Source of the DNA: Promethearchaeota archaeon
GTDB lineage: Archaea > Asgardarchaeota > Odinarchaeia > Odinarchaeales > JBHLKK01
Length of the DNA stretch: 32,000 nt
NCBI GenBank assembly: GCA_048939465.1
Contig: JBHLPL010000002.1
Span: forward strand, 1 to 32,000
Direction of reading: 5' to 3'
Positions 10,842 to 30,396 of this stretch are shown here, in pieces. Positions within the stretch are counted from its first letter, which is position 1. The number at the start of each line of letters is the position of its first letter. A model generated the notes under the pieces. That model was not told the origin of the DNA. It made no database searches and saw nothing but the letters and a program-made list of their open reading frames with translations. The translations under genes were made by a program, and so were the position numbers.

Positions 10842-11288
10842 ATGGAAGGGCCCAAGATAATTGACGCTTCTGATTTGGTTCTAGGAAGACTAGCGAGCGT
10901 TGTTGCAAAACGCTTACTTGCAGGCGAGAGCATCGTGATAGTTAACGCGGAAAAGGCAGTGATAACAGGCAAAAAGACAAGCATTTTGGAGAGATACAGA
11001 CAGAGATTTGGAATTAGAACTCTTACTGCGCCTTGGAGGGGACCGCTTCATTATCGAAGGCCAGACAGATTTGTGAAAAGGACTATTAGGGGTATGCTTC
11101 CCTATAAAACCCCACGAGGAAGAAAGGCCTATAAACGTCTTCTGGTACACATAGGCATTCCAGATGGAGTTGAGGACAAAATGAAAGAAACGCTCCCTCA
11201 GGCATCTATAGGGCGAACTAAGGGTAGGGGTATACGAGTTTACGAGTTGACCAGGGAATTAGGTTGGATTCCATCCGTGGAGGGGTAA
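10842..11288 (+). CDS. rpl13: 50S ribosomal protein L13 (uL13)
   Basis: [23 protein letters not shown]. Confidence 0.96.
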
Positions 11289-18311: not shown

Positions 18312-18403
18312 GTTTAATTAGGTAACGTCAAATTCGTTAATCGATATATGCTAAAAGACGACATTCTTAAAGATCCTAGACGAAAAGTGGAGGATGAACC
18401 AAC

Positions 18404-20208
18404 TTGATAAGACAACCCATTATATCGTTCTTGGGCCACATCGATGTGGGCAAAACAAGTCTCCTAGATAAGATAAGAGGAACAGTAGTTCAGCTTCGAG
18501 AGGCAGGGGGTATAATGTAGTAGCATAGACTACTCCATGCTAGACCCAGCATATCGGAGCTAGCTTCCTGCCCACTTCCGTTATAACAGCCATAGCAAAA
18601 GATCTTCTAAATCAATTCAAGATCAAAGTTACAATACCAGGATTGCTGGTTGTTGATAGCCCTGGGCATGCAGCATTTATGAACTTGAGAAGAAGAGCCG
18701 GGAGCGTCTGTGACATCGCCATTCTTGTGATTGATGTACTGGCAGGCTTTCAGCCTCAAACACACGAGTCCGTCAACATCCTGAAGGAGAGAAATACTCC
18801 GTTCCTGGTGGCGGCAAATAAGATAGATAGGGTTCCCGGATGGAAAGACAAAGAATCAACATCGTTCTTAGAATCTGTAAAGAAACAGGAAGAGTTTGTT
18901 AGGAAGAATCTTGATCAGAAAATATACGAAATCGTTGGGGCCTTTTCAACAATAGGTTTTGAATCTGAAAGATTTGACAGAGTGGGAGATTTTACTAAGA
19001 CCATCGCCATTGTGCCTACAAGTGCAAGAACTGGAGAAGGGATTGCAGAACTCCTGATGGTAATTGCAGGACTTACCCAACAATACATGATGAAACGTTT
19101 GGAGATTTCATCTGAAGGGGGCAGAGGAACAGTTTTGGAGGTCAAGGAGGAACCGGGGCTGGGAATTACCGTTGACACTGTTATCTATGATGGAGTGATC
19201 CACAAGGGAGACACCATCGTGGTAGGGAGCTTGGGTGATCCTATTGTAACTAAGATACGGGCAGTTCTGCTGCCAAAACCCCTTGATGAGATACGCGACC
19301 CCCGCGAACGATTTGATCCTGTAAAGGAAGTTCAAGCAGCTGCAGGTATCAAGATAGCAGCACCTGCTCTTGAAGGGGCTATTGCTGGAGCCCCTTTGAT
19401 TGTCGCGAACACAGAAAAGGAGATTGAAGAAGCAAAGAACGAAATATTGAGTGAGATTGAAAAGATCAGGATATCGACAGACAAAACAGGGATAATACTT
19501 AAGGCAGACACGCTAGGTTCTTTAGAAGCTATTCTAAAATACTTCCAGGATCAAGGGATTGCAGTCAGAATAGCCGACGTTGGGGATATTTCAAAAAGAG
19601 ACATAGTTGAGGCTGAAGTCGTTAAGGAACTTGATCCGCTTTCAGCGATTGTTCTTGGATTTAATGTCAAAGTACTGCCTGATGCCAAAGAGGAATCGGT
19701 TAAACATGAAATTCCGATACTCCAAAACAGGATAATTTACCGATTGTTTGAGGAATATGACAATTGGCTATTTGAGAGGAGGGAAGAGCGAAAGAGAGAA
19801 GCATTGAAGACAGCCGTAAAACCAGGAAAGGTAAAAATCATTCCAGAATATATTTTTCGGCAAAGTAAGCCCGCGATCGTCGGTGTTGATGTTCTTAGCG
19901 GGCAAATAGTCTCTCGGGTCAACTTGATAAAAGAGGATGGGAGCAGAGTAGGAACAATTCTTCAGATACAGGACAAAGGAGAAGTAATTCCTATTGCCAA
20001 GGCGGGACAAGCTGTCGCCATTTCAATCAGGGGAGCCACCGTTGGTCGACAGATAAATGAGAATGACGTTCTATATGTCGATATGCCAGAAAGAGATGTC
20101 AGACTCTTCAAAGAACGTTTCAGAGACGAACTCTCTGTGGGTGAGTTGGAAGCTTTAGATGAATTAATCGAGATAAAGAGGAAATCAGATCCTACATGGG
20201 GTGCATAA
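18404..20208 (+). CDS. infB: Translation initiation factor aIF5B (IF-2), split gene: join(18404..18514,18544..20208), 591 aa after removing a 29-nt insert
   Basis: Exon 1 [37 protein letters not shown] joins in frame to [10 protein letters not shown]...DSPGHAAF...NKID; TTG start after GGAGGATGA. Confidence 0.95.
18515..18543 (+). other. Putative bulge-helix-bulge (BHB) intron in infB, 29 nt, phase 0
   Basis: Exon helix GGG/CCC, central helix GGUA/UGCU, bulges UAA (18513-15) and AGA (18542-44), intron stem UGUAGUAG/CUACUCCA (7 of 8 pairs). Contains in-frame TAG TAG. Confidence 0.88.
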
Positions 20209-29390: not shown

Positions 29391-30396
29391 CTAATCTCTC
29401 CAGACAATATCAACTTCATCGAGTCGCCATTTTGGCTTTACGCTACTATTTTTTAATTTCAAAACCTGTCCATGTTTGTACTGTAACATCCCTGTCCATG
29501 CTATCATCGCTCCATTGTCCCCAGAGAATCTGTTCGAGACCACACGAAACTTTGCATTATGCTCCTTAGCAATGGATTTAAGCATCTCCTGCAGTCTTTT
29601 GTTTGCAGCTACACCTCCCGTTAATAGAACAGCAGGCTTTTCAGTGTGTGCGAGGGCACGCTCCGTAACTTCGGTCAACATTGAAAATGCAACTTCCTGT
29701 AAGCTGAAACAAAGATCTTCGATTCTGTTCTCATGAAGTTTGTTTGTTGCAGCAGTTAGGAGACCGGAATAGGATAAGTCCATACCTTTGACAGTGTAGG
29801 GTAAATCAATGAACCGCTTGCCTTTCTTTGCTAACCTTTCTATCTTGGGGCCACCTGGATGTTTGAGTCCTGCTGAACGCGCAAAAGCATCGAGCAAATT
29901 ACCTATGGGAATATCTAGGGTTTCCCCAAACACACGATACCTACCTCCGTCATAGGCCGCGACTATGGTATTGCCACCTGAAACATACAAAGTAACCGGA
30001 TCTTCCGTATTGGAAGCAAGGCGCCCTATCTCTATATGAGCGACACAGTGATTCACACCGACGAGCGGGACTTCAGTAACTAACGCCAAAGCTCGAGCAG
30101 CAACAGCAGCAGTCCTAAGACAGGGACCTTTCAGCAAACTGTTGGCAGAGTTTTAAACCGGGTCCCTGAGAGAATGCCACGAATTCAATGTCGCTCAGGC
30201 TTATCTTTGCTTCTTCTACTGCTCTTACAATAGTTTTCTCTGCAACCCGTACATGGTGTTGGGCCGCTTCTCGAGGATGGATGCCACCCGTTTCTGGTTG
30301 ATACACGCTTTCAACACTCGTAAGGATTCTTCCTTCAGGCGTTACTATGCCAACACTGAACGTGTGGGCAGTTCCCTCAATACCCAAACCCACCAC
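29391..30396 (-). CDS. kae1: tRNA t6A N6-threonylcarbamoyltransferase Kae1/TsaD, split gene: complement(join(29391..30129,30155..30396)), 326 aa after removing a 25-nt insert
   Basis: Exon 1 GIEGTAHT...GGIHPREAAQHH...AFSQGPGL joins GPCLRT...GVNHCVAHIE...LYVSGG...ETLD...GGVAAN...DNGAMI. Confidence 0.95.
30130..30154 (-). other. Putative bulge-helix-bulge (BHB) intron in kae1, 25 nt, phase 2
   Basis: Exon helix CAGGGACC/GGUCCCUG (8 bp, perfect), central helix CGGU/GCUG, bulges UUA and AAA, intron stem AAACU/AGUUU with an 8-nt loop. Confidence 0.93.

What the first reader, a model, noticed from the sequence alone, without database searches (positions are those of the whole stretch)
18503..18550. 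Second BHB intron, in the switch-I motif of aIF5B (infB)
Seen: the conserved REAGGI^TQHIG motif is interrupted by 29 nt containing in-frame TAG TAG, so the ORF track finds only a truncated 521-aa product from 18643. The RNA folds as GGG-GGUA-UA^A-UGUAGUAG-CAUAGA-CUACUCCA-UGCU-AG^A-CCC: a 3-bp exon helix, a central helix with 2 G-U pairs, two 3-nt bulges and an intron stem with 7 of 8 pairs. Canonical bulge cleavage removes 18515-18543 and yields ATA ACC CAG (I-T-Q), a 591-aa aIF5B. Inference: a splice-dependent essential GTPase. The motif is somewhat weaker than the kae1 one.
Basis: partly seen in the sequence, partly recalled or inferred. Interest (0 to 1): 0.92.

Follow-up and report, generated by a model that had tools for sequence, protein, structure and literature searches.

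The report
tRNA-type mini-intron splitting aIF5B gene
The only gene for the essential translation-start factor aIF5B in this uncultured Asgard archaeon is broken by a 29-base insert shaped like a tRNA intron; relatives show it is almost certainly cut out of the mRNA, a kind of splicing confirmed so far for only one archaeal protein gene (cbf5).

Summary
A 29-nt insert (18515-18543) with in-frame TAG TAG splits aIF5B between GGI and TQH. Removing it joins profile positions 2-37 and 38-590 without a gap and gives a 591-aa protein. It is the genome's only aIF5B.

Evidence that it is a real intron:
- Independent metagenome assemblies from three studies carry the insert. None shows an insert-less DNA form.
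- Exon 1 is under strong purifying selection (dN/dS 0.00-0.04), so the gene is not decaying.
- Of 400 Asgard genomes, 8 in three families have an insert at exactly this site (29, 30 or 33 nt). All fit helix / 3-nt bulge / 4-bp helix / 3-nt bulge / helix. 91.9% of pair cells are paired and 8 pairs show compensatory changes.
- Every intron-bearing gene uses the codons GGG GGY ATA|ACC. No intron-less gene does.
- The genome encodes a catalytic and a non-catalytic EndA subunit and two RtcB ligases.

No RNA data could be found, so splicing is inferred, not observed. In the window's genus the motif is weaker: the BHB fold lies 2.4-2.9 kcal/mol above the MFE.

kae1, EF-2, pyrG and ahcY in this genome carry similar inserts. 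This scan has noted aIF5B BHB introns before on other DNA. I found no publication on them.

The parts
18389..18394 (+). Shine-Dalgarno-like GGAGGA, about 10 nt before the TTG start
   Evidence: Read from the sequence. It is conserved in the two congeneric genomes (one search prints the upstream 60 nt).
18404..18514 (+). Exon 1 of aIF5B: 37 codons, TTG start, P-loop GHIDVGKT, up to REAGGI
   Evidence: TIGR00491 positions 2-37, E 2.6e-12. dN/dS is 0.00-0.04 among three species of the genus.
18494..18499 (+). 5' strand of an outer exon-exon helix (CUUCGA), pairing with 18554-18559 (UCGGAG)
   Evidence: Present in both the MFE and the BHB-constrained folds. Seen only in the window's genus.
18506..18508 (+). 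Exon helix h, 5' strand (GGG), pairs with CCC 18545-18547. It continues after an A/A mismatch as GC 18503-18504 with GC 18549-18550.
   Evidence: columns 13-15 with 56-58: G-C in 8 of 8 sequences.
18509..18512 (+). Central 4-bp helix H, 5' strand (GGUA, exonic)
   Evidence: Pairs with UGCU 18538-18541. This helix is 100% paired across 8 genomes, with G-C/G-U and C-G/U-G/U-A variation.
18513..18515 (+). 5' bulge UA^A. The predicted 5' cut lies between 18514 and 18515.
   Evidence: The bulge is UAA in 7 of 8 genomes and UAG in one.
18515..18543 (+). The 29-nt intron. ATG TAG TAG lies at its 5' end in the exon-1 frame, and there are two more stops in the exon-2 frame.
   Evidence: It is present in DNA contigs of runs from three studies, and no insert-less joint was seen.
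18516..18523 (+). Intron stem h', 5' strand (UGUAGUAG)
   Evidence: 7 of 8 pairs with 18530-18537. 7 of 10 stem columns show changes on both sides across genomes. A strain variant has G18517-C18536 replaced by A-U.
18524..18529 (+). Intron loop (CAUAGA)
   Evidence: It varies freely among relatives.
18530..18537 (+). Intron stem h', 3' strand (CUACUCCA)
18538..18541 (+). Central helix H, 3' strand (UGCU, intronic)
18542..18544 (+). 3' bulge AG^A. The predicted 3' cut lies between 18543 and 18544.
   Evidence: The bulge is AGA in families f1 and f8 and AAA in f15.
18544..20208 (+). Exon 2 of aIF5B: 554 codons plus stop. It begins with the switch-I threonine codon (TQHIGAS).
   Evidence: P0001. 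(TIGR00491 positions 38-590, 729.7 bits). (PDB 7yyp, 1g7r aIF5B, E 1e-174 or better). dN/dS is 0.06-0.08.

Best explanation
The 29 nt at 18515-18543 are an archaeal bulge-helix-bulge (tRNA-type) intron inside the coding sequence of the single aIF5B gene of an uncultured Asgard archaeon.

Proposed mechanism:
1. The gene is transcribed with the insert.
2. The exon sequence GGG-GGUA-UA, together with the intron and the downstream exon sequence A-CCC, folds into helix / 3-nt bulge / 4-bp helix / 3-nt bulge / helix.
3. The splicing endonuclease EndA, here a catalytic subunit plus a non-catalytic paralogue, cuts after the second base of each bulge.
4. RtcB joins the exons, and probably circularises the intron.
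5. The spliced mRNA encodes a 591-aa aIF5B with an intact switch-I motif GGITQHIG.

Unspliced mRNA yields only a 38-residue peptide, because two stop codons follow the 5' splice site.

Shown here: the anatomy, the colinearity, conservation with covariation, selection on both exons, and the presence of the enzymes. Inferred: cleavage, ligation and the spliced mRNA.
For: 1. Exact join. Exon 1 matches TIGR00491 positions 2-37 and exon 2 matches 38-590, giving 591 aa.

2. No other aIF5B in the genome, which is 91% complete.

3. Not an assembly error. Contigs from runs of three studies span the insert, with no joint lacking it. One strain variant differs at 7 positions, all inside the 29 nt, with none in the 74 flanking exon bases. 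These include the compensatory change G18517-C18536 to A-U.

4. Not a pseudogene. Among three species of the genus, exon 1 has 6-8 synonymous against 0-1 non-synonymous differences (dN/dS 0.00-0.04). Exon 2 has dN/dS 0.06-0.08. Codons 38-70, upstream of the alternative TTG 18643, are also conserved.

5. Same-site inserts in 8 of 400 Asgard genomes: family f1 3/3 (29 nt), f15 4/4 (33 nt), f8 1/1 (30 nt).

6. Conserved structure. All 8 fit the same BHB. In f15 and f8 the MFE fold is the BHB itself in 4 of 5 genomes; in G042 the BHB fold lies 1.3 kcal/mol above the MFE. 91.9% of pair cells are paired, against 26-34% when partners are slid by 1-3 columns. There are 8 pairs and 21 cells with changes on both sides, and 0 of 500 shuffles reach the score.

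7. Exon codons follow the intron. All 6 intron-bearing genes tabulated, and the two further ones matched by the pattern, have GGG GGY ATA|ACC. None of the 24 intron-less genes forms the full GGG/CCC helix.

8. Machinery. One EndA paralogue (204 aa) best matches the catalytic subunit of the Aeropyrum pernix heterotetramer (3P1Z_B, E 1.5e-44) and keeps Tyr, His and Lys. A second (191 aa) lacks the His. There are two RtcB genes.

9. The same genome has analogous inserts in kae1, EF-2, pyrG and ahcY.
Against: No RNA evidence: no RNA run holding this sequence was listed, so the spliced junction has not been seen.

In the window's genus the motif is weak. The central helix has two G-U pairs and the intron stem has one mismatch. 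The BHB conformer is 2.4-2.9 kcal/mol above the MFE, which uses another register.

The genome is a 91%-complete MAG, so an intron-less second copy on unassembled DNA cannot be fully excluded.
Confidence: 0.87

Rival explanations
1. The insert is removed from the RNA, but not by EndA/RtcB. Another nuclease-ligase pair, or a small self-cleaving element, would do it, and the BHB-like fold would be incidental.
For: In the window's genus the BHB is not the minimum-energy fold. No cleavage assay exists.
Against: The geometry kept across three families is exactly the EndA substrate: a 4-bp helix, two 3-nt bulges, and cuts after the second bulge base. The exon codons are held to the sequences that form its exonic half. 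29-33 nt is too small for any known self-splicing intron, and Rfam finds nothing.
Confidence: 0.05
2. Translational recoding. Ribosomes bypass (hop over) the 29 nt or shift frame, as in phage T4 gene 60, so no RNA splicing is needed.
For: A stop codon directly after the take-off site and a hairpin in the gap are features of gene-60-type bypassing. In family f15 the insert is in frame (33 nt) with one stop, so read-through is formally possible there.
Against: There are no matched take-off and landing codons: AUA before the gap, UAG before ACC after it. All frames through the insert hold stops: IM** in the exon-1 frame and two stops in the exon-2 frame, so simple frameshifting cannot work. Gap lengths of 29, 30 and 33 nt with unrelated stem sequences but conserved BHB geometry fit an RNA-cleavage signal. 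Eleven extra residues in switch I would disrupt a universally conserved GTPase motif.
Confidence: 0.03
3. The gene is broken or split. Either it is a pseudogene, or the cell makes a truncated aIF5B (521 aa from TTG 18643, or 554 aa) that works without its P-loop, with a real copy elsewhere.
For: The ORF track shows only the 521-aa ORF. The genome is 91% complete.
Against: Exon 1 and codons 38-70 evolve under strong purifying selection in the aIF5B frame. A product from 18643 would lack the P-loop and switch I. The same interruption persists in 8 genomes of three families. No second aIF5B was found in G000. In the relatives searched the further matches were weak (E 1e-4 to 1e-7) and probably other GTPases.
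Confidence: 0.03
4. Assembly or sequencing artefact: the 29 nt are not in the organism's DNA.
For: The genome is a metagenome-assembled genome of 152 contigs.
Against: Independent assemblies of runs from three studies span the site with the insert, including diverged strains. Two other species of the genus and five genomes of two other families have inserts at the same site.
Confidence: 0.01

Closest known systems
cbf5 pre-mRNA BHB intron of Crenarchaeota (Aeropyrum, Sulfolobales, Desulfurococcales; Watanabe 2002, Yoshinari 2006, Yokobori 2009 = PMC2738675)
   Same: A short BHB intron inside a protein-coding sequence of an essential RNA/translation-related gene. The host has a two-subunit (alpha-beta)2-type EndA. 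The window's catalytic subunit is most similar to the A. pernix one. The phylogenetic distribution is patchy, implying gain and/or loss.
   Different: A different gene (aIF5B, not cbf5) and a different phylum (Asgard). The intron sits in the GTPase switch-I codons. cbf5 splicing was shown experimentally and this one was not. PMC2738675 states that no archaeal pre-mRNA splicing had been confirmed for genes other than cbf5.
Archaeal tRNA and rRNA BHB introns, including the very intron-rich tRNA genes of some Asgard archaea (PMC11291895; bioRxiv 10.64898/2026.10.13.758758)
   Same: The same hBHBh' geometry, the same predicted cut positions and the same size range. ARAGORN finds introns in 12 of the 15 tRNA genes it can detect in this genome.
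   Different: The exons here encode protein, so the exonic half of the motif must be written in codons. It is: GGG GGY ATA|ACC. Those papers describe tRNA introns only. I found no mention of protein-coding introns in them.
HAC1/XBP1 unconventional mRNA splicing (IRE1 cleavage; RtcB ligation in metazoa)
   Same: By my own knowledge: a non-spliceosomal removal of a very short intron (26 nt in XBP1) from an mRNA by a protein endonuclease that cuts at two RNA structures. Joining is by an RtcB-type ligase, and the reading frame changes.
   Different: The endonuclease (IRE1) and the RNA signal (two stem-loops) are different. That system is a regulated stress switch. No regulation is shown here.
Translational bypassing, phage T4 gene 60
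   Same: A short untranslated gap in a coding sequence that begins with a stop codon and holds a hairpin.
   Different: No matched take-off and landing codons, variable gap length, and conserved BHB geometry instead.

Membership tests
Archaeal BHB (EndA-cleaved) intron | Two 3-nt bulges on opposite strands, separated by a 4-bp helix | tested here: met
   GGUA/UGCU with bulges UAA and AGA. The central helix is 100% paired in 8 genomes.
Archaeal BHB (EndA-cleaved) intron | Flanking helices h (exon-exon) and h' (intron-intron) | tested here: met
   h is GGG/CCC, plus GC/GC after a mismatch, plus an outer 6-bp helix. h' has 7 of 8 pairs. It is weaker than in families f15 and f8, where h has up to 6 bp (3-6) and h' has 9-11 bp.
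Archaeal BHB (EndA-cleaved) intron | Cuts after the second base of each bulge give the functional product | tested here: met
   Removing 18515-18543 joins TIGR00491 positions 37 and 38 exactly. The same holds for the 30-nt and 33-nt inserts.
Archaeal BHB (EndA-cleaved) intron | Structure maintained in evolution by compensatory changes | tested here: met
   8 pairs and 21 cells with changes on both sides; 91.9% paired against 26-34% for slid controls; 0 of 500 shuffles. A strain-level G-C to A-U change was also seen.
Archaeal BHB (EndA-cleaved) intron | The host encodes the splicing endonuclease and an RNA ligase | tested here: met
   Two EndA paralogues: one with the Tyr/His/Lys triad, one without the His. 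Two RtcB genes.
Archaeal BHB (EndA-cleaved) intron | Spliced RNA, circular intron, or in vitro cleavage observed | not testable with these tools
   No RNA run was listed for this sequence.
cbf5 pre-mRNA intron lineage | Located in the cbf5 gene of Desulfurococcales or Sulfolobales | tested here: not met
   The host gene is aIF5B and the organism is an Asgard archaeon. It works like the cbf5 intron but is not a member of that intron lineage.
Programmed translational bypass (gene 60 type) | Matched take-off and landing codons flanking the gap | tested here: not met
   AUA before the gap; UAG then ACC at its end.
Intein | In-frame insertion translated with the host protein | tested here: not met
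   29 nt is not a multiple of 3, and there are stops in all frames used.
Self-splicing group I / group II intron | Ribozyme core recognisable by covariance models; length of hundreds of nt | tested here: not met
   The insert is 29 nt. No Rfam match in the window or in 18350-18700 at E up to 1.

The most novel reading that the evidence does not exclude
In this Asgard lineage, EndA/RtcB splicing is not a curiosity of one gene but a routine step of mRNA maturation. Many core genes depend on tRNA-type micro-introns. I confirmed inserts in aIF5B, kae1, EF-2, pyrG and ahcY, and earlier unchecked notes of this scan list more. In the kae1 insert a canonical BHB was confirmed here. In the EF-2 and pyrG inserts a BHB was only partly fitted by hand (EF-2's central helix has 3 of 4 pairs). 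In ahcY only the frame breaks were seen. aIF5B introns at the switch-I and P-loop codons are kept or regained across Asgard families. That would make these archaea, relatives of the eukaryotic ancestor, prokaryotes with intron-interrupted protein genes. It would also tie synthesis of the translation machinery to the tRNA-splicing enzymes.
Probability: 0.5. Interest if true: 0.9.

Novelty: new member of a known kind. Interest (0 to 1): 0.74.

Why it matters
Protein-coding BHB introns have been confirmed experimentally only in cbf5 of Crenarchaeota (PMC2738675). My searches of the paper library found nothing on such introns in aIF5B or in Asgard protein genes.

Here an essential, universally conserved translation GTPase needs removal of the insert to keep its catalytic switch-I motif. 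The insert is conserved, with covariation, across three Asgard families.

Practical consequence: gene callers report a truncated aIF5B (521 or 554 aa) and may flag a pseudogene. That distorts marker-gene sets, completeness estimates and phylogenies for these MAGs.

Biological consequence: it widens the substrate range of the archaeal tRNA-splicing machinery to mRNAs of core genes in the archaeal group closest to eukaryotes. It also gives a concrete, testable case, with a predicted junction sequence, circular intron and junction peptide, for how introns arise and persist in protein genes without a spliceosome.

Tried and rejected
1. RNA evidence. Neither kind of run search listed an RNA run holding this sequence: 'no RNA holder listed'. 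This says nothing about expression.

2. Genome-wide count of mRNA introns. I scanned for a strict BHB (central helix 4/4, exon helix of at least 3 bp, intron stem of at least 5 pairs) and added an ORF-joining test with frame-shifted decoys. There was no excess over decoys, for example 25 against 16-23 hits at 60 or more open codons on both sides. Of the 25 top candidates only kae1 looked real. The verified pyrG and EF-2 inserts have relaxed stems or helices and fail the strict filter. The scan is therefore too crude to count introns and is not evidence either way.

3. Unconstrained RNAfold of the window's own sequence does not return the BHB as its MFE. The constrained BHB is 2.4-2.9 kcal/mol higher.

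4. Rfam: no family matches.

5. Considered and rejected: pseudogene, split gene, translational bypass or frameshift, intein, assembly error (see the rivals).

6. Single origin against repeated gain could not be settled. On the aIF5B tree, family f1 is sister to the intron-less family f2 (SH-aLRT 97), while f8+f15 form a clade elsewhere (98). That needs at least two gains, or one gain and several losses. It is a single-gene tree from a quick search.

7. The pattern survey of 400 genomes presupposes the exon sequence GGGGGYATA...ACCCARCAYAT, so same-site introns with other exon codons would be missed. In the protein search only the best 150 rows were listed.

Full report
**What is in the sequence**

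On the + strand an aIF5B frame starts at TTG 18404, preceded by GGAGGA. It encodes 37 residues with the P-loop GHIDVGKT and ends with REAGGI. It then runs into ATG TAG TAG.

At 18544 a second frame starts with TQHIGAS and continues for 554 codons to 20208. The mechanical ORF list shows only a 521-aa ORF from TTG 18643. Removing 18515-18543 (29 nt) gives GGT ATA|ACC CAG and a 591-aa protein. A cut one base to the right gives the same product.

NCBIfam places exon 1 at positions 2-37 and exon 2 at 38-590 of TIGR00491, and at 9-44 and 45-597 of NF003078. The join is exact to the residue. Exon 2 matches solved aIF5B structures at E 1e-174 or better.

The threonine that opens exon 2 is the conserved switch-I (G2) threonine of IF2/eIF5B GTPases. 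This last point rests on established knowledge of the family.

**Is it real DNA, and is the gene alive?**

The genome is a MAG of 1.96 Mb in 152 contigs, 91% complete. It holds no other aIF5B: the further hits are other GTPases.

Contigs of public runs from three studies span the site with the insert, and no joint lacking it was seen. One diverged strain contig (18467-18569) differs at 7 positions, all inside the 29 nt. The changes include G18517-C18536 to A-U. In another variant the U18518/C18535 mismatch becomes A-U.

Two other species of the genus have the same 29-nt insert. Among the three species:
- exon 1 shows 6-8 synonymous against 0-1 non-synonymous differences (dN/dS 0.00-0.04);
- exon 2 has dN/dS 0.06-0.08;
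- the intron differs at 4-7 of 29 positions.

The 33 codons between the insert and TTG 18643 are also conserved as coding sequence. This excludes an assembly error, a decaying pseudogene, and a product that starts at 18643.

**Relatives**

A congener carries the NCBI title 'Candidatus Hodarchaeota archaeon', which places the organism among Asgard archaea. The same-order genus has complete genomes of about 1.4 Mb.

I surveyed 400 genomes of the phylum. An insert at exactly GGI|TQH occurs in 8:
- family f1, 3 of 3 genomes, 29 nt;
- family f15, 4 of 4, 33 nt;
- family f8, 1 of 1, 30 nt.

A different 29-nt insert splits the P-loop codons (GHIDHGK|T) in 4 of 4 genomes of genus g7 of family f7. It is absent from the other genus of that family.

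**Structure**

All eight same-site inserts fit one model: exon helix (GCU)GGG/CCC(AGC), central helix GGYA/URYY, bulges UAR and ARA, then an intron stem of 8-11 bp and a loop.

In families f15 and f8 the unconstrained MFE fold is this hBHBh' motif in 4 of 5 genomes. In G042 the BHB fold lies 1.3 kcal/mol above the MFE.

On alignment A1:
- 91.9% of pair cells are standard pairs, against 26-34% when partners are slid by 1-3 columns;
- 8 pairs and 21 cells have changes on both sides;
- 0 of 500 shuffles reach the covariation score;
- the central helix is 100% paired.

The stems of the three families differ at most positions yet stay paired, for example G-C/C-G, U-A/C-G and G-C/A-U.

In the window's genus the motif is weaker. 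It has two G-U pairs in the central helix and one mismatch in the stem. The BHB conformer lies 2.4-2.9 kcal/mol above the MFE, which uses another register. An outer exon helix (18494-18499 with 18554-18559) is present in both folds.

A motif of the stringency that this site passes occurs at about 3e-5 per position and length in the genome. Its presence at the one place required by homology, in three lineages, is not chance.

**Exon codons**

All 6 intron-bearing genes tabulated read GGG GGY ATA|ACC CAR, and the two further f15 genomes match the same exon pattern. These codons supply the exonic half of the motif. None of 24 intron-less Asgard genes forms the full GGG/CCC helix; they use GGT/GGA/GGC, ATC/ATT and ACT/ACA. 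Synonymous sites are thus tied to the presence of the intron.

**Machinery**

The genome has two EndA paralogues, each with both Pfam endonuclease domains.

- The 204-aa one best matches the catalytic subunit of the Aeropyrum pernix heterotetramer (3P1Z_B, E 1.5e-44). It keeps the Tyr, His and Lys that I align to the M. jannaschii triad. That alignment is by eye, from my knowledge of the M. jannaschii enzyme.
- The 191-aa one lacks the His.

This points to an (alpha-beta)2 enzyme. That is the type with broad substrate range, and the type found in the hosts of the cbf5 intron (PMC5829648, PMC2724299 abstracts). Two RtcB genes are present, one interrupted by an intein.

**Rivals**

- Translational bypass or frameshifting. 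There are no matched take-off and landing codons. Stops lie in every frame through the insert. Gap length varies while the BHB geometry is conserved.
- Intein or self-splicing intron. The size, phase and lack of any Rfam hit exclude both.
- Removal by some other RNA-processing route. This cannot be excluded without an assay, but nothing points to it.

**Context in this genome**

I confirmed a canonical 25-nt BHB intron in kae1 on the - strand of the window (30130-30154). Splicing restores AFSQGPGL|GPCLR.

I also confirmed:
- a 31-nt insert in EF-2 between EEQERG and ITIKSA, one codon from the homologous switch-I position;
- a 31-nt insert in pyrG that restores SGIGKGATAASIG;
- at least two frame-breaking inserts in ahcY.

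Earlier notes of this scan gave me these leads. My own crude genome-wide scan could not count such introns.

**History**

On a quick single-gene tree, f1 is sister to the intron-less f2, and f8+f15 form a clade elsewhere. This means either repeated gain at one site or an old intron with several losses. It remains open.

**Known or new**

The library holds the cbf5 work, which states that no pre-mRNA splicing had been confirmed for other archaeal genes (PMC2738675). It also holds papers on the abundant tRNA introns of some Asgard lineages (PMC11291895; bioRxiv 10.64898/2026.10.13.758758). I found nothing on aIF5B or on protein-coding BHB introns in Asgard archaea. Papers outside the library cannot be excluded.

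This scan has reported aIF5B BHB introns before on other DNA: Baldrarchaeia, Bathyarchaeia, methanogen-related classes and DPANN. One of those notes describes the same 30-nt motif that I see in G012.

**Verdict**

This is a new member of a known kind, well supported by comparative evidence, and it awaits RNA-level proof.

Noticed in passing
window 30130-30154, - strand: A 25-nt canonical BHB intron in kae1/tsaD: 8-bp exon helix CAGGGACC/GGUCCCUG, central helix CGGU/GCUG, bulges UUA and AAA. Splicing restores AFSQGPGL|GPCLRTAAVAARALA. Unspliced, the frame stops after ...KLCQQFAERSLS.
   Followed up: yes
L015, L016, L048, L049 (genomes G011, G021, G139, G138; family f7, genus g7): aIF5B of another Asgard genus has a different 29-nt insert, inside the P-loop codons (GHIDHGK|T), with a perfect 9-bp intron hairpin. 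The central helix has only 3 of 4 pairs by my hand fit. It is absent from the other genus of the family (G140, L050).
   Followed up: partly
G000 contig C68, about 10914-10944, + strand (locus L005): EF-2 is split by a 31-nt insert between EEQERG and ITIKSA. This is in switch I, one codon from the position homologous to the aIF5B intron. The BHB is relaxed: 3 of 4 pairs in the central helix in every register I tried.
   Followed up: partly
G000 contig C116:17805-17835, - strand (locus L064); contig C118:250-1000, - strand (L061, L063): pyrG has a 31-nt insert in its N-terminal nucleotide-binding motif; removing it restores YIFVVGGVMSGIGKGATAASIG. ahcY is broken into at least three frame segments within about 250 nt.
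   Followed up: partly
G000 contig C31:2958-5639, - strand (locus L042:1501-4179): One of the two RtcB ligase genes carries an in-frame intein of about 450 aa, with a LAGLIDADG-like domain, between RtcB profile positions 57 and 45. The ligase needed for RNA splicing therefore itself needs protein splicing.
   Followed up: partly
whole genome G000: ARAGORN detects only 15 tRNA genes in a 91%-complete genome, and 12 of them have introns. Most tRNA genes are probably missed because of multiple or non-canonical introns, as reported for other Asgard lineages.
   Followed up: no
G126:C20 (locus L047 and downstream): The aIF5B of G126 (family f12) is continuous at the switch-I site, yet its open frame is only 526 aa. 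The cause was not examined; it could be another insert further downstream or an assembly problem.
   Followed up: no
L009, L010, L012, L013 (family f2, sister of the window's family): The intron-less sister family already uses ATA (Ile) and ACY (Thr) at the junction but GGT GGA for the glycines. This is halfway to the intron-bearing codon set, and is compatible with either intron loss there or a predisposed site.
   Followed up: no
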